Part shown: in pieces, positions 1-8,089 of the stretch
How positions within the stretch are numbered: the first letter of the stretch is position 1
Layout of the letters: each line of letters starts with the position of its first letter
From: a virus
UHGV virus genome: UHGV-0142838
Direction: 5' to 3' (one strand)
Length of the DNA stretch: 25,920 bases
Position numbers and translations under genes: made by a program
Notes under the pieces: model-generated
The model's input: only the letters and a program-made list of their open reading frames with translations
Database searches by the model: none
Told to the model about the DNA's origin: nothing

Positions 1-548
1 TTTCACGATTACACGCACCCCACCTGAGAACAGCCATGGGTAAGGGTTTCATGGTTTATGATTTTAGTTTGGTACACAATTTGGTACACATCGCAATTTT
101 CACATCACCGGGCAGTCATAAAACTCACCATAACGCTCTTCGTTGATGATGTACGTGATCACCAAAAATATCGCATCCGGACTAGTTCCATCTTCATGCG
201 TAGGTATCTGTTCATGCCTACCTGTCTGCAAATCCTAAAGATGAGATTTTAGAGTTTTGGGATATCTTTTTATCCTCAGTTCTCTATCCATTCTGCAAAC
301 CAGTAACGAACCATCACCGTGTGATAGTGAGGCATCCGCTACGTTAAGCGCAGAGAAATGATGCAGTGGTGGGCGGATTGGATTGATGAAAAGGTGGTGT
401 GACCCGCCTTAACAACTATCGAATATCACAAAACCTTGCAATCCAGTGCAAAGCTTTGTGTGCAAGAATATTTTCTCACCAACATCATGACAACATTATT
501 CTCTTAGTTAATTACATCGAAAAATCATACATAACCATATTAATTAAC

Positions 549-572
549 AATCTGCGCCTTTTCGACGCAGAT
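549..572 (-). terminator. Putative rho-independent terminator downstream of the tailspike gene
   Basis: Seen in sequence: inverted repeat AATCTGCG ... CGCAGATT (8-bp arms, 8-nt loop) 24-47 nt past the tailspike stop (596-598), flanked by AT/T-rich sequence on both sides. No folding energy computed. Confidence 0.4.
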
Positions 573-595
573 TTCATATTGTTTTATGTTGAATA

Positions 596-2974
596 TCATA
601 TTTTATTTAAGTTATTCTTTTTTAATGTCATCTCTAGTTCTTCGATACGTCTTTCTATATTATCAATTCTCTCCCAGCATTGCTGAATTGATTTAACAAT
701 AGGTGGGATAAACTCATCGTAACCGAGTGAGTAAACATCATCCCCACCATTTTTCAAGTGATGCTGTAGCCCACCGAACTCAACACCTAATTTTTCACAC
801 AGTTTCAATACGTCCTGTGCAATAAACCAGTGATGGTATCGTTGACGTTTTTTACTGCCGTCAGGAGTTTTCTGCACTACTTCAAGATATTTTTCTTCGA
901 CATTCTCAATAGCTGATATAGTAATTCCATCAACATCTCGTTCTACTTTTTTTGGTACAATTCTTGTCTTTTCAATAACATCAATATAATCATCACGCAT
1001 ATCCCAGCGACCATCGACAGGACGAAGCCCAAGGATAAATTCAATCCCCAGCAAAGTATCTCGGATATCTGTTTTATCACGCGCATCAGATCTGTTTTGC
1101 ACAGTTCCATATACATATGTCGTTGTGGAAGAATTGCCAAGCTGCACCTGATTACTTCCTGACACCCTTGCATCATTGCCAACAGTTGTTGTGTTGGTAA
1201 GTGATGATGTGCTTTCCCCTGATTGAGTTAATCTACCTGAATTATGTCCAATAGCCGTGTTTAATGCGCCGGTTGTATTTGTGACAAGAGAGCCAGACCC
1301 AATTGCAACGTTACTGCTTCCCGATGTTGTTCCTTTTAATGCCTGCTGTCCAACCGCAACATTATTATCACCCGTTGCTGCTATAAGTGCCATGTGACCA
1401 ATAGAAACGGTAAATGAACCTAGCGTTTGAGTTTCACCGCATGCACCATAACCAATTACAACAACATTATCTGTAATTGTTGACTCGGTTGCCGCTCCAG
1501 CACCAATAACAACGCTTTCATTCCCGGCAAGATTCTTGCGCATTGCGAACATTCCAATGCCAACATTATCATGCCCAGTCCCTGTACCTGCTGCCTCCGC
1601 AGCACCAAGACAGTTTCCCGCTCTGTAGCCAACCATGGTGTTATTTGAACCAATAGAGAAGTCTCCGGCAAAAGAGCCTACGTATACACTATTAGACTGA
1701 GAGTAATCTCCAGGATTTCCATTCGCCCGATATCCTACTGCAACTGTATAAATAGTATCTGGAGCCTCAGCCATGGCCTCAAAGCCAACTCCAACGTTAT
1801 ATCTACCGCCCTTAACTTTTTCTCCTGCACCAAGTCCGAAGAATGAGTTATAGCTCCCGGTTGTTAGCCACTCGCCAGCAACAGAACCTACAGCAGTGTT
1901 TCCTGTTCCAGTACATCGATACAAAGTCAGGAAGCCAACTCCGGTATTATTATTTCCTGAAATATTACTCATCAATGATTTTGACCCAATGGCAGTATTG
2001 TTAACACCATCGGTCAGATCCTGTAACGCTCGCGGGCCAAATGCTGTATTATCGTAACCCTTTGGCGCTGTTGTTGGATCTGGTAACTCCGGGGTTAGTT
2101 TTTCACCACCACCACCATTGGCACAAAGATTGTAAGATCGAATAAATTCAGCCACTGGCCCAAGTTTTAAATAACCATTGGCAATATTAATTCTGACACT
2201 TACATTAACTGAGCTACCAGGAGCTTCTATTGTCCTGTCATCAACCCAAGTAAAACTCTGTGGTACCCCGTCATAAGTTAATGTCACATCTCCTTTATCA
2301 TTATAATTATAGAACAATGTATAACGCTCATTTATAGATTCAGAACCTGATGAGCCTCCTCTCCTCCACCACTCTGCATTATCAAAAATAAGTAATCCTG
2401 GACCATAATATTTTCCCTTCTGACCCAAGATCATAGGAGTCGATAATCGCCACCTTCCCTCTGGAACATATACATCGATCCCAGTTCTTTCTGCGTCTTT
2501 AAACGATTCATCACATAATAAAACACCACCTTCAACAGCACCAAATCCACGAACATCACCATTATCTCTCCATCGAGCAATTTGCAACTCAGGATACTTC
2601 TTAGCGCCATCAATGTCTTCTAATTGGTCCCGCAGCTGATCAGGATCATACTTCAGTACATTAGGAAAATAGAACTGCTGAGCACCGTAAGCATCATATA
2701 CAGCCATAGAATGGCCTTGCACAGTTACGAACTTGGCAATCTGTCCGTTATATACAGGGTAACCAGCAGCGTTAAGGATGATTGGTTGTGAAACAGGAAT
2801 GTGAGAACCATCTTCACTCTCTACATAAACCTGAATCTGGTTTTCAGGATTTACCGGGTCAGTGTCAATTTTACCGATATAAATTTTGCCATTAGCTACG
2901 GCTTTAAAAGAGCGAGCCATAGTGAAGAGTTGCGATGGCATCCCAATTACAACATTTGTGGTTATATTAGGCAT
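596..2974 (-). CDS. Tailspike / tail fibre: P22-type N-terminal head-binding domain, glycine-rich repeat central region, C-terminal intramolecular chaperone (peptidase S74-like)
   Basis: ORF track 596..3067. Residues [17 protein letters not shown]...[26 protein letters not shown]...[15 protein letters not shown]...NVLKYDPDQ closely match the P22 gp9 N-terminal domain as I recall it. Central region has repeated N-T-A-I/V-G / G-x-x-A motifs. C-terminus has S-D-A-R-D-K, the S-D-x-x-x-K spacing of the endosialidase/T5 pb1 chaperone family. Start chosen at ATG 2974 (AGGA 8 nt upstream, aligns with P22 MTDITANVV); the longer 3067 start has no SD. Confidence 0.85.
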
Positions 2975-3319
2975 ATTAGTCATCCTGTTTGAAAACTTAG
3001 AAATTGAATAAAAAGGAATGACTGCAGACAAAGATGCAAGTGTTTTGAAAAATAATCTTCTATTCATTTTAAATCATGCAACACAAACAAAACGATTATT
3101 TTACAGCGTGCATGAATCTTGATCAACAGGCATATATTTTAATTGCTGAATACGTCACTTAAAAATGACAAGTACTACTTTTATTCCTATCATCCATGAT
3201 TTTAATTTTCAAATATTATTAAATAACAATTCCTATTTATAATATCTGTCATTTAATTTGCTCCAGATACAAGTAATCGCTGCAGCGTGGCAGCAGTGAA
3301 ACATTATCAATCATACAAC

Positions 3320-3336
3320 AAGACCACCGTGGTCTT
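3320..3336. promoter_or_regulatory. 17-bp perfect palindrome AAGACCAC-C-GTGGTCTT; candidate Mnt operator
   Basis: Seen in sequence: 8-bp arms around a central C, 63 bp upstream of the mnt start. Resembles the 17-bp symmetric P22 mnt operator (core CCACGGTGG) as I recall it. A -35-like TTATTG (3335-3340) and -10-like TAATAA (3358-3363) with 17-bp spacing overlap the right arm; these promoter calls are inference. Confidence 0.5.
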
Positions 3337-3398
3337 ATTGAGGATGCAACCAGCAGATAATAAGATGCCGATCCACTCACAAAAGCGAGGCATCAAGA

Positions 3399-3650
3399 AT
3401 GGGAAGAGATGACCCGCAATTTAATCTGCGGCTACCTTACGAATTAAAGGAAAAACTAAAACAGAGAGCCAAATCCAATGGCCGCTCTCTTAATTCAGAA
3501 TTAGTTCAGATAGTGACTGATGCTGTATCAAAGCCATCCAAAATTTCAGGCTATCGAGACGATGCGGAACGCATCGCTGATGAGCAGTCCGAACTTGTTA
3601 AGAAGATGGTGTTTGATACGCTGAAGGATTTATACAAAAAACCCACCTGA
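3399..3650 (+). CDS. mnt: Mnt-type ribbon-helix-helix repressor (Arc/MetJ superfamily)
   Basis: 83-aa product MGRDDPQFNLRLPYELKEKLKQRAKSNGRSLNSELVQIV...AERIADEQSELVKKMVFDTLKDLYKK matches P22 Mnt in length and along most of its sequence (from memory). Opposite strand to the late genes, as in P22. Confidence 0.9.
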   Translation: MGRDDPQFNLRLPYELKEKLKQRAKSNGRSLNSELVQIVTDAVSKPSKISGYRDDAERIADEQSELVKKMVFDTLKDLYKKPT

Positions 3651-3659
3651 TGGTGGGTT
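3640..3659. terminator. Hairpin terminator between convergent mnt and lipoprotein gene
   Basis: Seen in sequence: AACCCACC-TGAT-GGTGGGTT, perfect 8-bp stem with 4-nt loop. The mnt stop codon TGA is the loop. On the minus strand it is followed by TTTTGTATA, so it is convincing for the 3667-4086 gene; the plus-strand U-tract is weak. Confidence 0.6.
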
Positions 3660-3666
3660 CCATTCA

Positions 3667-4086
3667 TTAGTCTTGCTTTGTGGACGGTATAAGGGATGCA
3701 TTTGCCTCTTTAGGCTTCAAGGTATACATCCCACCATTAAATGGATCTACAGCAAGCCAACCAATTAACCCACCAAACACAAGGTTTCCACCAATATACC
3801 AACCATTAGCATTGGCTTTGATTGGAAGGGTAACTGGTTCGTACCCATCCTTCTCCATAGTGATCTGGTAGCTCTTTTTGCCAAAATAGCTACCATCTGA
3901 CTTGGCGAGTGTTACACCTTGTGGAGTCTTACCTTGCGCAACAATCACACCCGATTCATCTTTTACCTTAAAGGTCGCGCCAGAAGGATTGCTGTTCACC
4001 TGCACAAGTTGCGTTTCATCACCAACAATAGTTGCGCACCCAGATAACATGATAACGCCAGCAACAACGCCGATAATCCTCTTCAT
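3667..4086 (-). CDS. Lipoprotein with PEGA-like domain and glycine-rich hydrophobic C-terminal segment; function unknown (moron)
   Basis: 139-aa ORF. N-terminus MKRIIGVVAGVIMLSGC is a signal peptide with lipobox L-S-G-C. VNSNPSGATFKVKDESG...GKTP fits the PEGA pattern. C-terminal WYIGGNLVFGGLIGWLAVDPFNGG is glycine-zipper-like. Sits where P22 has sieA/hkcC; AT-rich relative to the structural genes. Confidence 0.7.
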   Translation of the reverse strand: MKRIIGVVAGVIMLSGCATIVGDETQLVQVNSNPSGATFKVKDESGVIVAQGKTPQGVTLAKSDGSYFGKKSYQITMEKDGYEPVTLPIKANANGWYIGGNLVFGGLIGWLAVDPFNGGMYTLKPKEANASLIPSTKQD

Positions 4087-4220
4087 ATTACTTTCCGTTT
4101 TGTTAGAATCAGAAAGATCTTAATAATAAAAAGTATTTCCGTGAAGATATTGTCGATTGAGTTAATAACTCATTTACACCCAACAGTGCCATGATGGCAA
4201 AGATAAGGAGAGTTAATCAT

Positions 4221-4706
4221 ATGAAAAAATCACTGTTAATTATCCCGCTTCTGCTGGCAGGGTGTGCAAAGGTTAGCGACTATCAGGCAAGTTGCGAACA
4301 ACGCTATCCAAAGCTTAGCGATATGGCTAATTGCCTTGATGCCAGTGTGAAGAACGACTCACGCATGGCATCTTCACCAATACCTAAGCTGTATGTCCTT
4401 GCTGCAAAGATGCTCGGGCAAGGTGTTGATGAAGGTAAGATAAGTGACGCACAGGCAAGACTTGAGCTTCAGAATCTTTATGTTCAACTACAAAGCCAAG
4501 AACAAGCCCAACAAATAGCGCAAAGCCAAGCATTCCAGCAGGCTTTATTGAATTATCAGGCTGTAAACACAATGCAAGCGATCGAGCAAAAAGCGAGACA
4601 GCCTGTTATAACTCAACCCTATCCAACACGAGTTGACACTTACACAAACTGCAATTCAGGGTTTGGGAATACAGTCACATGCAACAGTAGCAGTAACATC
4701 AGATAA
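4221..4706 (+). CDS. Lipoprotein with cysteine-containing N-terminal part and Q-rich predicted helical region; function unknown (moron)
   Basis: ORF track 4191..4706; start placed at ATG 4221 (AAGGAG at 4205-4210). MKKSLLIIPLLLAGC is a signal peptide with lipobox L-A-G-C. Q/A-rich stretch LELQNLYVQLQSQEQAQQIAQSQAFQQALLNYQAV. Divergent from the 3667-4086 gene; I recognise no family. Confidence 0.65.
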   Translation: MKKSLLIIPLLLAGCAKVSDYQASCEQRYPKLSDMANCLDASVKNDSRMASSPIPKLYVLAAKMLGQGVDEGKISDAQARLELQNLYVQLQSQEQAQQIAQSQAFQQALLNYQAVNTMQAIEQKARQPVITQPYPTRVDTYTNCNSGFGNTVTCNSSSNIR

Positions 4707-4796
4707 CAATCAGCAAAGGTATCGCCTATGCAGAGGGATACGATAAACCTCGCGTTCTACATATTTGGTTTTTGCACTTTCCTGGTGTTTGAAAAG

Positions 4797-6794
4797 CTAT
4801 TCTGACAACGCATCAGACTTAGCCCCCTGCGTCAGAGTGTTAATTGCTTTTTGTGCCTGCTGCATTGCTTTCTCAAAGGCTGTTGATCCGCGTGGGGTGT
4901 TTGCCATTCGGAGCATTGCATTTCTGAATGGCTTGCTCTCATAGGCGCGAGTAAGAAGTCCGTAGCTTACTGCTGCGCCAGTTGTCACCGGGTTCATTGC
5001 CGTCCCATACCCAATAATGAACGGGATAGTTTGCTGCCCTGTGGGTGTTGTTACTGCCGCTTTTGCAGCCTGCTGCGTGGATTGCAGGTAGTTTTTTAAT
5101 CCTTTCAGATAAGCAGCGTCCTGCCCCTTAAATGTGATGCCAGTCTGGTTTTGCAGGATGTTAAGCTGCCGAAGGAACTGGTCAGGGGATCCGCCAGATT
5201 TCTCCATCGCCTTTCCAATGATGCCATTGCGCATTTGCGCCCTGCCAACACGACCAACTGAGTTATATAGCGTCTTAATTTCCGATTTGTTCTTGCTGAA
5301 TAGCATGTTGTTGACAACTTCCGGCGTCAGGTCGCCTTTCATGAGAACATTCTTCAGCCTGGTATTCTTTAGTTTCGCCGCTTCGTCAGCGTAGACGGCA
5401 TTGGCCTGCTGATATTTACGGAGAGTATCGTTGCCAAGATTCTGACCAATGGCACCATTGATATCGTCAGTCATTGCCTTGTAAACGCGCTGAATAGCAG
5501 CATCGGAACGGTTTGGTAACACTGGTCGCTCACCCTTCACGTCCATTCTGAACTGGCTGCGCAGGTCGCTTAATTGCTTCAAATCCAGATTTACCGGACC
5601 ATCAGGGCCAGCATTGCGAACAAGCTCATCACGATATGACTGAAGTTTTGAAATTGTCTCGTTATCAGCTACCTTACCAAGCTTCTGCAGATTAGATATC
5701 TCAGTATCAATCTGCTGAATTGCTCGCGCAGGCTGGATATTGACTCCCGCCATTGCATTCTGAACCTGCTCAAGACGGTTCCCTGCGGCACGACGAATTC
5801 CTGATGTTTTCGCTTTAAGGCTGTCAATAACAACCGCTGGATCATACTCACCGAATTTATCGGCAAATCTCTGCACCAACTGGCTTCTCGCTTCCTGTTG
5901 CGTTGCTCTCATTCCGCTTGTGCCAGCCAGAGGGATATTTTCTGCTGTAGTCTGCGCCATTTTTCCGACGCGGGAAGTGGGTTGTAACAGGTCTGTGGTG
6001 TGCAGAGGAACTCCTTCACGCTCTGCAAATCTGATAGCCTGCTGCGCTTCTGGCGCAATAGCACCACTAACGCCACGATAAGCAGCACCTAATCCACGTC
6101 CAGCAGCGTTAATAGCGCCGCCTGCCAGAACGCCAACACCTAAATCGGTGGCGAGGGCTTCCGCATCATCTTTCGCACTATTTGCAGCAAGTGACCCGAC
6201 TGCGTTTTCAGCGAGAAGGCGAGTTGCACCCTGAGCGATTCTACCAGCTAGTGTTGGTGCCTGTGCCGCCGCTCTCTCAACGCCAGCAGGAGTGAGGTAA
6301 GGCAATGCTTCAGCAAATACCCTTCCCTCTGTCGTTTGTGGAGTCAGCGCGCCTTGCTGAAGGCCAAAGTCCTGCTCTAATCCCTGCGTTGTTACTCGTG
6401 GCGCTGGTTGATATGTACCATCGCCAATGCCGAGTTTACCGCCAGCCCAAGCCGCCGCGCTTGTTACAGCATCGGCAACTGATGCGGGTATGTTTGCCAC
6501 GTTCACGCCAGCCTGCGCCAGTCCGCGACCAGTCTCTTTTACTGCTTCGCCAAGATCAGACATAAATCCACTTTGCTGTGGTTGTTGCTGTGCTACTGGT
6601 TGCTGTGTCTCCACTTGCTGCGCAGATGGCAATGGATAGGCAGCATAGAAAGCTTGCTTGGCCTGCTCTGCATTTTCTCCGGCTTGCGGGGCAACGACTT
6701 CATTGAAGTATTGCTCCTGAGCCTGCGCTTTTTGTTCTGGTGCTAACGCCTGATACTGTGGAGAGGCGATAACATCTTTCCATGCTTTAGCCAT
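4797..6794 (-). CDS. Ejection (DNA-injection) protein, P22 gp16 / Sf6 gp13 position
   Basis: 665-aa ORF, last of three genes after the gp14-like gene, as in the P22 order 14-7-20-16. Start overlaps the upstream stop. Assigned mainly by synteny and size. Confidence 0.7.
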   Translation of the reverse strand: MAKAWKDVIASPQYQALAPEQKAQAQEQYFNEVVAPQAGENAEQAKQAFYAAYPLPSAQQVETQQPVAQQQPQQSGFMSDLGEAVKETGRGLAQAGVNVANIPASVADAVTSAAAWAGGKLGIGDGTYQPAPRVTTQGLEQDFGLQQGALTPQTTEGRVFAEALPYLTPAGVERAAAQAPTLAGRIAQGATRLLAENAVGSLAANSAKDDAEALATDLGVGVLAGGAINAAGRGLGAAYRGVSGAIAPEAQQAIRFAEREGVPLHTTDLLQPTSRVGKMAQTTAENIPLAGTSGMRATQQEARSQLVQRFADKFGEYDPAVVIDSLKAKTSGIRRAAGNRLEQVQNAMAGVNIQPARAIQQIDTEISNLQKLGKVADNETISKLQSYRDELVRNAGPDGPVNLDLKQLSDLRSQFRMDVKGERPVLPNRSDAAIQRVYKAMTDDINGAIGQNLGNDTLRKYQQANAVYADEAAKLKNTRLKNVLMKGDLTPEVVNNMLFSKNKSEIKTLYNSVGRVGRAQMRNGIIGKAMEKSGGSPDQFLRQLNILQNQTGITFKGQDAAYLKGLKNYLQSTQQAAKAAVTTPTGQQTIPFIIGYGTAMNPVTTGAAVSYGLLTRAYESKPFRNAMLRMANTPRGSTAFEKAMQQAQKAINTLTQGAKSDALSE

Positions 6795-8089
6795 TAATCA
6801 CCCCATAGTGAAGAAAAGTTACTGCCAGTAGTAGATTGTTGCCCTGGCATATTCTGTACTGGCTCCTGATAATCAAACTGTTTTTTAACAGTGCTCAACT
6901 TGCTTTCAAGCTGATTTCTAATCTTTCCGATAGAGTCACGAAAAGCCTTTTCACTCATTTTGGGGCTTAGGGCACCAACCGCATCGGATAATTTTTTACC
7001 CTCAGCATCTGAAAGAGCGCCCATTCCCTTCAGGGACTGCACCATAGGAAGGAATGTTTGAGCTTTAAAGGTGTCGAGCCTTGCTTCAAAGTTAGCCGCA
7101 TCAGAGCCAGGAACTGTCGGAAACGCTGAGCGAATTCCTACTGCTTTTGAAAGGCCGGGGCTTTGCTCTATCTCGTTGAGAGAATCAAGCGCGGTGCTGA
7201 ACGTATCAACTGCACCCTGAGCGGCGGCCTGCCTGTCAGCGCGGGCTATGTCAGCCTTTTGCCGAACATCTGCCTGTTTCTGTTTTAGCTCTTCAAGCTT
7301 TAACTGATTGCTTTCTCTGGCTATCTGTCTGTCCAGAGCCTTTTCTTGTAATTCTGCTCTTTGTATTTCGCGGGAAAGAGCAGCATTCTGTGCGCTGATG
7401 TTCTGTCCACGTATCTGGATGTCCTGACCACGCGCTGTTAGTGCTTCTCCAGCCTGATTGCTGCGGATTGTCTCTGCCAGTCTGCCTCGGTCAATCTCAC
7501 GACCAGCCATCTTGTCCTGAACATTGAAGTAGTCAATCGGACCGAGAGCAGCCATCCCAAGGTGATCAACAAACTCACCAAATCCTGAAGGGTTTTGCTG
7601 ATACATCTGAGCAACGCTGTTAGGGTCAACACCGACGCGAGTCAGTTCCTTGGCGTTGTTTTGCAGCCATGATTGCATTGCTTCTGGAGACGATGACGCA
7701 AGGCGTGCGCCAGCCGCTAAGGTGCCGATAGAATTACGCTGCTCTTCATCAATGAATCCCATGCCTTTACGAACGGATTCAATCTGGTCTGGATATTGAG
7801 TAGCCAACTGACGCAAAGCACCGCGATCACCAGACGCATAAGCATTAGCGTATGCCTGCTGAAATTCTTTCTGCCGCTGAGCCTGCTTTTCCTGCTGAAA
7901 CACCCCTGCAATACCTGAAAGGCCTTGCAAAGCAGTCAGCCCAACATTGTTAGCGCCTGAACGCTCAATATCATTGTTCTGCCTGATAAGCTGAAGCGTA
8001 TTGCCGATGTCATTTACGCTCGGAGCGTTTGAGTTGACGCCGCCGATACCAGCCAACAATCCGCCGTTTGTTCCTTGCCAAGTAGCCAT
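6794..8089 (-). CDS. Ejection protein, P22 gp20 / Sf6 gp12 position
   Basis: 431-aa ORF; synteny within the P22-like ejection cluster; coiled-coil-like central region. Confidence 0.7.
   Translation of the reverse strand: MATWQGTNGGLLAGIGGVNSNAPSVNDIGNTLQLIRQNNDIERSGANNVGLTALQGLSGIAGVFQQEKQAQRQKEFQQAYANAYASGDRGALRQLATQYPDQIESVRKGMGFIDEEQRNSIGTLAAGARLASSSPEAMQSWLQNNAKELTRVGVDPNSVAQMYQQNPSGFGEFVDHLGMAALGPIDYFNVQDKMAGREIDRGRLAETIRSNQAGEALTARGQDIQIRGQNISAQNAALSREIQRAELQEKALDRQIARESNQLKLEELKQKQADVRQKADIARADRQAAAQGAVDTFSTALDSLNEIEQSPGLSKAVGIRSAFPTVPGSDAANFEARLDTFKAQTFLPMVQSLKGMGALSDAEGKKLSDAVGALSPKMSEKAFRDSIGKIRNQLESKLSTVKKQFDYQEPVQNMPGQQSTTGSNFSSLWGD

What the first reader, a model, noticed from the sequence alone, without database searches (positions are those of the whole stretch)
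596..2974. Chimeric tailspike: P22-type head-binding domain fused to a glycine-rich repeat body and an S74-type chaperone
The first roughly 115 residues align closely with the P22 tailspike particle-binding domain, but the rest is unlike the P22 endorhamnosidase. It consists of repeated N-T-A-I/V-G and G-x-x-A motifs, then a C-terminal module with S-D-A-R-D-K, the Ser...Lys spacing of intramolecular chaperone/peptidase domains in endosialidases and T5 L-shaped fibres. The gene is markedly AT-rich relative to neighbouring virion genes, suggesting a recently acquired receptor-binding module of unknown specificity. The chaperone would be cleaved off on maturation.
Basis: partly seen in the sequence, partly recalled or inferred. 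Interest (0 to 1): 0.55.

Follow-up and report, generated by a model that had tools for sequence, protein, structure and literature searches.

The report
P22-type tailspike with self-cleaving chaperone
This is the receptor-binding tailspike gene of a P22-like E. coli phage: a standard virion-attachment domain joined to an uncharacterised repeat shaft and a self-cleaving folding domain, which is an ordinary kind of modular swap whose target on the cell is still unknown.

Summary
A 792-aa gene lies on the minus strand at 596-2974. It has a P22 head-binding domain (aa 1-113, Pfam E=3e-63), about 17 copies of a 17-residue Gly/Asn repeat (aa ~306-608), and an invariant S629-D-A-R-D-K634 that opens a 164-aa C-terminal domain. 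GC is 41.9% against 49.6% for the virion genes.

The S74/intramolecular-chaperone reading holds, but only at family level:
- This sequence alone scores just under Pfam's cut-off (19.6 vs 22 bits).
- 38 of 50 homologues hit Peptidase_S74.
- The AF2 model matches the solved MyRF, GA-1 and T5 chaperone domains.

It resembles only the N-terminal cap of pectate-lyase-type beta-helices. No known depolymerase catalytic domain was found.

The architecture is not new. The sibling phages CUS-3 and vB_EcoP-720R6 carry a head-binding-endosialidase-S74 spike in the same slot. The shaft+chaperone module also occurs behind T7-type and TSP1/Gp66-type (Tail_spike_N) adaptors.

An orphan start of the previous spike gene (3240-3264) and a 26%-GC spacer show that the whole gene arrived as a cassette. 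The same gene, 98-99.6% identical, sits in 18 complete E. coli genomes, including ST131 clade B strain SaT040.

Verdict: a new, uncharacterised member of a known kind. Receptor and enzymatic activity are unknown.

The parts
596..2974 (-). Tailspike gene, 792 aa (85.3 kDa precursor), stop codon at 596-598
   Evidence: ORF list; AGGA RBS 8 nt upstream of ATG 2974; PGAP uses this start in ZH063, WP_021527227.1 'phage tailspike protein'; PHROG 4636 'tail spike protein' 778 bits
2636..2974 (-). aa 1-113: P22-type head-binding (virion attachment) domain
   Evidence: Pfam PF09008 1-113/113, E=3.1e-63; PDB Sf6 gp14 and P22 gp9 N-terminal domains
2522..2635 (-). aa 114-151: linker/neck still shared with the CUS-3 endosialidase spike (87% aa identity over aa 1-151); similarity stops at the DVRGFGA motif
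   Evidence: BLASTP vs CUS-3 SiaK1; blastn 2522-2956 85.5% to 720R6
2075..2572 (-). aa 135-300: conserved domain; about 90 residues resemble the N-terminal cap and first rungs of pectate-lyase-like beta-helices, with no full catalytic helix
1139..2074 (-). aa 301-612: shaft of about 17 copies of a 17-residue repeat (G-x-N-N-T-A-I/V-G-x-x-A-L-x-x-x-T-x), modelled as a beta-solenoid
1310..1489 (-). aa 496-555: least conserved part of the shaft, and the site where homologues insert extra repeats; candidate specificity region (inference)
   Evidence: Conservation profile on 50 homologues
1091..1189 (-). aa 596-628: most conserved stretch of the family (76-83% mean identity), immediately before the cleavage site; probable stalk segment templated by the chaperone (inference)
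   Evidence: role inferred from endoNF/MyRF literature (PMC8326128)
1073..1090 (-). aa 629-634 S-D-A-R-D-K: predicted Ser629/Lys634 catalytic dyad; scissile bond predicted between R628 and S629
   Evidence: Invariant in family; Pfam S74 profile position 1 aligns to S629; same Ser-x4-Lys spacing as endoNF S911/K916 and MyRF S587/K592 (PMC8326128)
599..1090 (-). aa 629-792: intramolecular chaperone/autocleavage (Peptidase_S74-type) domain, 164 aa, 19.2 kDa, ending in a ~40-residue helix (aa 752-791, nt 602-721)
2975..3239 (-). 265-bp spacer, 26% GC, that came in with the spike cassette; contains the spurious in-frame ATG at 3067
3240..3264 (-). Scar: orphan RBS (GGAG 3264-3261) plus the first 13 nt (ATGACAGATATTA, ATG at 3252) of the previous P22-type tailspike gene
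   Evidence: Side-by-side comparison with 720R6 and CUS-3; blastn break points

Best explanation
This is the single receptor-binding tailspike of a P22-like (Lederbergvirus-type, Sf6/CUS-3-like) temperate E. coli phage.

Shown:
- It has four parts. (1) A P22-type head-binding domain. (2) A conserved ~165-aa domain related only to the N-terminal cap of pectate-lyase-type beta-helices. (3) A shaft of ~17 turns of a 17-residue Gly/Asn-rich repeat. (4) A C-terminal intramolecular-chaperone (S74/ICA) domain carrying an invariant Ser629...Lys634 pair.
- Parts 2-4 form a mobile module. The same module is found behind other virion adaptors (T7 gp17 N-terminus, TSP1/Gp66 N-terminus).
- The whole gene entered this phage backbone as an AT-rich cassette that displaced an earlier spike.

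Inferred:
- Three chains are brought into register by the C-terminal domains, whose long terminal helices form a trimeric coiled coil.
- This templates folding of the conserved stalk segment just upstream (aa 596-628) and of the shaft.
- Once the trimer is correct, Ser629/Lys634 cut the R628-S629 bond. The 19-kDa chaperone leaves, and a 66-kDa mature spike remains.
- Six mature trimers dock on the tail through the head-binding domain and bind a surface polysaccharide of the host.

My leaning, about 55:45, is that the shaft acts as an adhesin-like fibre rather than as a classical depolymerase. The reasons are that no catalytic domain was found and that the repeat is a generic fibre repeat. The receptor is unknown. 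The O25b O-antigen or the capsule of ST131 clade B lysogens is a lead only.
For: - Gene and start.
- Head-binding domain.
- Phage context (terminase, portal, coat, gp4/10/26/14/7/20/16 order; 96.5% identity to vB_EcoP-720R6).
- S74 sequence evidence: the Pfam profile starts at S629; 38/50 homologues hit PF13884, best 5.6e-11; R-S-D-x-R-D-K is invariant.
- Ser-Lys dyad mechanism and trimer-dependent cleavage: PMC8326128.
- Module mobility: Pfam adaptors in homologues; a T7-like contig with the module in the gp17 slot; an SU10-like contig; 504 IMG/VR contigs.
- Cassette acquisition.
- Precedent in the same slot: CUS-3 endosialidase spike.
Against: - The S74 Pfam score of this sequence alone is below the gathering cut-off (19.6-20.1 vs 22 bits).
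- BLASTP and hhalign to the CUS-3 chaperone find only a 22-residue motif.
- Structure evidence rests on monomer AF2 models. The shaft has only moderate confidence (pLDDT 50-89 by 10-residue block), and no trimer could be modelled.
- Every characterised P22-like tailspike that I know of is an enzyme, which argues against a purely adhesive spike.
- Family-invariant E368/W369 and near-invariant D438, R451 and Y450 on the shaft could be a catalytic or binding groove.
- Cleavage, trimerisation and receptor are untested.
Confidence: 0.78

Rival explanations
1. Same architecture, but the mature spike is an enzymatically active depolymerase (glycosidase or lyase) of an undescribed family. The active site would lie on the repeat shaft or in the aa 135-300 domain. 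The spike would digest O-antigen or capsule, as other P22-like spikes do.
For: All characterised P22-like spikes I know of are enzymes (established knowledge; P22, Sf6, HK620 and the CUS-3 record). The aa 135-300 domain carries the N-terminal signature of pectate-lyase-fold enzymes. Invariant or near-invariant acidic/aromatic residues E368, W369, E403, D438, Y450 and R451 sit at equivalent repeat positions (A-G-E/D-W/F) on several rungs.
Confidence: 0.4
2. The C-terminal domain is S74-like in fold but is not cleaved. It stays on the spike as a distal knob.
For: The Pfam score is sub-threshold for this sequence. A variable ~40-residue insertion (aa 663-705) lies within the domain relative to the CUS-3 chaperone.
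Against: The Ser and Lys of the dyad and their neighbours are invariant across homologues down to 37-40% identity. That is hard to explain without catalysis. In the endosialidase and MyRF chaperone domains the Ser-Lys dyad is required for self-cleavage (PMC8326128).
Confidence: 0.1
3. The gene is a relative of ElmA, the prophage-encoded K5 (heparosan) lyase of E. coli, which also carries an ICA domain.
For: ElmA is listed as a prophage K5 lyase with an ICA domain (PMC8326128; PMC3594737). By my recollection, which is unverified, ElmA is ~820 aa, close to the 823-aa long ORF here. The gene occurs in ExPEC ST131 strains.
Against: No member of the 90% cluster, and none of the top 120 homologues that carry a source name, is called ElmA or a lyase. 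There is no similarity to the solved K5 lyase KflA or to any lyase in the PDB. Close homologues occur in genera without K5 capsule. The primary ElmA papers were not available, so the sequence could not be compared.
Confidence: 0.05
4. The gene is a decaying prophage remnant with no function.
For: It lies at a prophage end next to host genes in ZH063. An orphan start of an older spike gene sits upstream.
Against: The 792-codon reading frame is intact. The gene is 98-99.6% identical in 18 complete genomes and belongs to a 201-member 90% cluster. The window carries a complete virion gene set. Functional residues are conserved.
Confidence: 0.03

Closest known systems
Endosialidase tailspike SiaK1 of P22-like prophage CUS-3 (and the identical-length spike of Escherichia phage vB_EcoP-720R6)
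   Same: Same genomic slot in a sibling backbone (window 3240-7000 is 96.7% identical to 720R6). Same three-part logic: P22-type head-binding domain, then a foreign receptor-binding body, then a C-terminal S74 chaperone. aa 1-151 are 87% identical.
   Different: The body is unrelated: an endosialidase (sialidase fold, known from the literature, not shown here) versus an N-cap domain plus 17-residue repeat shaft. The chaperone domains share only short motifs (S-D-x3-K, R-x-H-H-x-x-I-A-Q) and no significant BLASTP alignment. CUS-3 has proven K1 specificity, whereas the specificity here is unknown.
Phage T5 L-shaped tail fibre pb1 C-terminal region with its intramolecular chaperone (PDB 4UW8)
   Different: Different virion adaptor and phage type. 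No detectable sequence similarity by phmmer or profile search. The T5 fibre lacks the 17-residue Gly/Asn repeat shaft.
P22 gp9 / Sf6 gp14 tailspikes
   Same: The N-terminal head-binding domain is homologous along its full length. Same gene position after the ejection-protein genes and the mnt/arc region.
   Different: There is no endorhamnosidase beta-helix. Those spikes have no C-terminal autocleaving chaperone (established knowledge).
YadA-like heads of trimeric autotransporter adhesins (e.g. UspA1 3PR7, CbpF 9U93) and left-handed beta-helix proteins
   Different: The repeat length is 17, versus 14-16 for autotransporter heads (my recollection). No Pfam Hep_Hag or YadA_head hit. RMSDs of 10-17 A show only generic solenoid likeness. 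There is no membrane anchor.

Membership tests
Pfam Head_binding (PF09008), P22-type tailspike particle-binding domain | Full-length match to the family profile above the gathering score | tested here: met
   211.5 bits vs cut-off 24, profile 1-113/113; aligned to solved P22 and Sf6 N-terminal domains
Peptidase_S74 / intramolecular chaperone autocleavage (ICA) domain | Profile match above Pfam gathering score | tested here: inconclusive
   This sequence scores 19.6-20.1 bits against a cut-off of 22. The orthologous region of 38/50 homologues matches at E<=0.01, best 5.6e-11
Peptidase_S74 / intramolecular chaperone autocleavage (ICA) domain | Catalytic Ser...Lys dyad with Ser-x4-Lys spacing at the start of the domain | tested here: met
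   S629 and K634; R628/S629/D630/R632/D633/K634 invariant. Same spacing as endoNF S911/K916 and MyRF S587/K592 (PMC8326128)
Peptidase_S74 / intramolecular chaperone autocleavage (ICA) domain | Fold similar to solved ICA domains, C-terminal position, long terminal helix for a trimeric coiled coil | tested here: met
Peptidase_S74 / intramolecular chaperone autocleavage (ICA) domain | Autoproteolytic release after trimerisation | not testable with these tools
   Needs expression and SDS-PAGE or mass spectrometry
P22-type endorhamnosidase tailspike body | Sequence or fold match to the P22/Sf6 catalytic beta-helix | tested here: not met
   PDB sequence matches stop at aa ~117-128. No significant Foldseek match
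Pectate-lyase-fold depolymerases (Pfam PF12708 Pect-lyase_RHGA_epim; right-handed beta-helix tailspikes) | Complete right-handed beta-helix catalytic domain | tested here: not met
Trimeric autotransporter YadA-like head repeats | Hep_Hag/YadA_head profile match; 14-16-residue left-handed beta-roll | tested here: not met

The most novel reading that the evidence does not exclude
The mature spike is a non-enzymatic, adhesin-like fibre. It would be built from a 17-residue Gly/Asn beta-solenoid repeat that has no Pfam model yet occurs in tens of thousands of protein clusters, from phage fibres to multi-thousand-residue cell-surface proteins. Its folding would depend on an S74 chaperone. This would make it the first P22-like phage that attaches through a binding-only spike, and a tractable model for an uncharacterised fibre fold.
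Probability: 0.3. Interest if true: 0.55.

Novelty: new member of a known kind. Interest (0 to 1): 0.3.

Why it matters
The practical value is modest. The spike is carried by prophages of E. coli ST131 clade B strains and by gut-virome contigs, so its receptor specificity could be useful for typing or for targeting that lineage.

The shaft repeat is very widespread and is not modelled by any Pfam family. A structure of this easily expressed protein would therefore annotate thousands of 'tail fiber domain-containing' and giant repeat proteins.

The scar of the displaced spike gene is a clean, base-resolution example of how receptor-binding cassettes are swapped between P22-like phages.

None of this overturns current understanding. 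Adaptor-body-chaperone spikes and modular exchange are well established.

Tried and rejected
- Full-length AF2 job (792 aa, 75-sequence alignment) failed. It was replaced by aa 116-792 and aa 125-300.
- Whole-model Foldseek against the PDB gave only meaningless global hits (TM<0.15). Only the local hits to ICA domains were usable.
- BLASTP and hhalign of the family against the CUS-3 chaperone found just a 22-residue motif. A global pairwise alignment was uninformative.
- NCBIfam: no hit.
- ElmA/K5-lyase lead: the primary papers (PMC178642, PMC94548, PMC2911314) and Casjens & Grose 2016 (PMC4969182) are not held. Reviews gave no sequence information. No source name in the cluster supports the lead. 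It is kept as a low-probability rival.
- Promoter scan: no more sites than in shuffles. Terminator-like sites: 4 against 1.9 +/- 1.6 expected, not clearly above chance.
- tRNA scan: none, so no att-site tRNA in the window.
- Looked for the same backbone+spike combination in complete E. coli genomes: none covers >=80% of window 1-7000.
- No cultured phage in the INPHARED set carries the full protein. The best body matches are Bacillus SPO1-like phages at ~37% identity.

Full report
**What is there**

The window is a complete 25,920-bp public virome contig. Its record calls this gene an 823-aa 'tail protein' (DAM11195.1). The contig carries the late region of a P22-like phage on the minus strand: lysis genes, terminase, portal, scaffold, coat, head-completion, needle and ejection-protein genes in P22 order. 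It is 96.5% identical over 65% of its length to Escherichia phage vB_EcoP-720R6, and similar to CUS-3, Sf6 and HK620.

The finding's coordinates, 596-2974, delimit a 792-codon gene on the minus strand. The ORF stays open up to an ATG at 3067, but three things favour the 2974 start:
- It has an AGGA Shine-Dalgarno 8 nt upstream.
- It aligns residue for residue with the N-termini of the solved P22 and Sf6 spikes.
- PGAP chose it in E. coli ZH063.

The 31-residue extension lies in a 26%-GC spacer and is probably an annotation artefact.

**Check of the observation**

- **Head-binding domain.** aa 1-113 match Pfam Head_binding end to end (E=3.1e-63). They also match Sf6 gp14 (E=7.9e-65) and P22 gp9 (E~1e-47) structures. 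Nothing in the PDB matches by sequence beyond aa ~128.
- **Repeats.** aa ~306-608 contain about 17 copies of a 17-residue unit anchored on N-x-T/S-A/V-x-G. Lag 17 is the strongest autocorrelation for Gly, Asn and hydrophobic residues, with z = 3.5-5.3 against the maximum over all lags in shuffles.
- **Ser-Lys motif.** S-D-A-R-D-K is at aa 629-634.
- **Base composition.** The gene has 41.9% GC (GC3 29.8%) against 49.6% for the virion genes.

**The C-terminal domain**

For this sequence alone, Pfam Peptidase_S74 is just sub-threshold (19.6 bits, cut-off 22). The match nevertheless begins exactly at S629. The wider evidence supports the assignment:
- Among 50 homologues, 38 hit the family (best E=5.6e-11).
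- R628-S-D-x-R-D-K634 is invariant down to 37-40% identity.
- An AF2 model of aa 116-792 (mean pLDDT 78.9) gives a C-terminal domain ending in a 40-residue helix.
- Foldseek matches that domain locally to the MyRF ICA domain (prob 0.99, TMt 0.55-0.59) and to the GA-1 chaperone 3gud.

The Ser-x4-Lys spacing equals that of endoNF S911/K916 and MyRF S587/K592. In those proteins the dyad cuts only once the trimer is formed (PMC8326128).

I therefore accept the S74/ICA assignment at family level. The predicted cleavage is between R628 and S629, giving a 66.1-kDa mature spike and a 19.2-kDa chaperone. Cleavage itself is inferred, not shown.

**The body**

An exhaustive phmmer search with aa 160-628 finds 28,097 cluster representatives (E<=1e-3; 365 at <=1e-30). 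Many are 1,000-5,000-aa proteins with 10-26 matched stretches. Some of those end in S74, others in Lcl_C or Fib_succ_major domains. The shaft is thus a generic fibre repeat, not a recognisable enzyme.

Within the close family, conservation varies along the protein:
- The stretch just before the cleavage site (aa 596-655) is the most conserved.
- aa 496-555 is the most variable and is where extra repeats are inserted.
- E368/W369 are invariant and D438/Y450/R451 nearly so. I cannot tell whether these mark a groove or a subunit interface.

**Origin and mobility**

The body+chaperone module occurs behind several adaptors: P22 head-binding, T7 gp17 N-terminal and TSP1/Gp66 N-terminal. It sits in the gp17 slot of a T7-like contig and next to a second spike in an SU10-like 72-kb contig. 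Relatives are encoded on 504 IMG/VR contigs.

In this window the exchange can be read at base resolution:
- Window 1-3659 is 99.3% identical to the end of a prophage in E. coli ZH063.
- Window 3240-7000 is 96.7% identical to 720R6.
- The spike's own head-binding part is only 85.5% identical to that of 720R6.
- At 3264-3240 there is an orphan RBS plus the first 13 nt (ATGACAGATATTA, 'MTDI') of the former P22-type spike gene, in the same register as in 720R6 and CUS-3.
- This is followed by a 265-bp 26%-GC spacer and then the present gene.

So the whole gene, adaptor included, arrived as a cassette. The mnt/arc region (3240-3659) is shared by both parents and is the likely crossover zone. The older fusion point between adaptor and body lies near aa 151, at the DVRGFGA motif, where the 87% identity to the CUS-3 spike stops.

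**Distribution**

The same gene (98-99.6% nt identity) is in 18 of 5,426 complete E. coli genomes, annotated 'phage tailspike protein'. These include SaT040, the ST131 clade B reference (PMC13645330), and the O25:H4 strain CU568-3. The 90% cluster has 201 members; those read are named E. coli.

No cultured phage in the phage collection has the full protein. No complete E. coli genome has this backbone+spike combination. PHROG 4636 ('tail spike protein') already contains the family.

**Comparison with what is known**

The closest system is the CUS-3/720R6 endosialidase spike. It occupies the same slot, has an 87%-identical adaptor and has the same adaptor-body-S74 logic, but with an unrelated body and a divergent chaperone. 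T5 pb1 is the closest non-enzymatic analogue.

The gene is therefore a new, uncharacterised member of a known kind of modular receptor-binding protein. The ElmA (K5 lyase) lead could not be tested against the sequence and has no support from database names.

**Verdict**

- The transferred cassette is the whole gene.
- There is an extra N-cap domain.
- The S74 assignment holds at family level only.

What remains unknown is the receptor and whether the mature spike is an enzyme. I lean slightly towards a binding fibre. Interest is low to moderate.

Noticed in passing
window 3240-3264 (minus strand): Orphan ribosome-binding site (GGAG 3264-3261) and the first 13 nt (ATG at 3252, 'MTDI') of an earlier P22-type tailspike gene, in register with 720R6 and CUS-3. 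It now opens a 16-codon ORF. This is a recombination scar left by cassette replacement.
   Followed up: yes
window 2975-3067 (minus strand): The public record of this contig starts the spike at ATG 3067 (823 aa). The 31-residue extension reads [16 protein letters not shown]..., which resembles a twin-arginine signal motif (RRxFFK + hydrophobic stretch). It lies in 26%-GC spacer DNA without a Shine-Dalgarno, so it is probably an over-extended annotation. A translated leader was not excluded.
   Followed up: partly
window 3667-4086 (-) and 4191-4706 (+): Two lipoprotein-like ORFs (signal peptide ending in a Cys lipobox) lie between the gp16 ejection-protein gene and mnt. The first has a weak PEGA-domain hit (E=0.0028); the second has no Pfam hit. 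They look like moron genes also present in 720R6.
   Followed up: partly
window 3399-3650 (+): Mnt/Arc-type repressor gene (Pfam Arc E=2.8e-22, Repressor_Mnt E=2.2e-18). It lies in the 3240-3659 segment shared by both apparent parents (ZH063-type prophage and 720R6-type phage), which is the likely crossover zone.
   Followed up: partly
window 342-438: A 97-bp island about 90% identical to the region just past the tailspike module in CUS-3 and 720R6. In CUS-3 it overlaps the 3' end of int. This is possibly the attachment-site region and the right-hand boundary of the swapped cassette. No tRNA gene is present in the window.
   Followed up: partly
window 1139-2074 (aa 301-612) and proteins P0151-P0284: The 17-residue Gly/Asn repeat has no Pfam model, although 28,097 cluster representatives match it. 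These include 1-5 kaa proteins with up to 26 matched stretches that end in Peptidase_S74, Lcl_C or Fib_succ_major domains. It is a large, undescribed fibre-repeat class.
   Followed up: partly
L005 8001-10823; L006 8001-10490: The same shaft+chaperone module sits in the gp17 tail-fibre slot of a T7-like contig. It also sits beside a second, pectate-lyase-type spike in a 72-kb SU10-like contig. This shows cross-family exchange of the module.
   Followed up: partly
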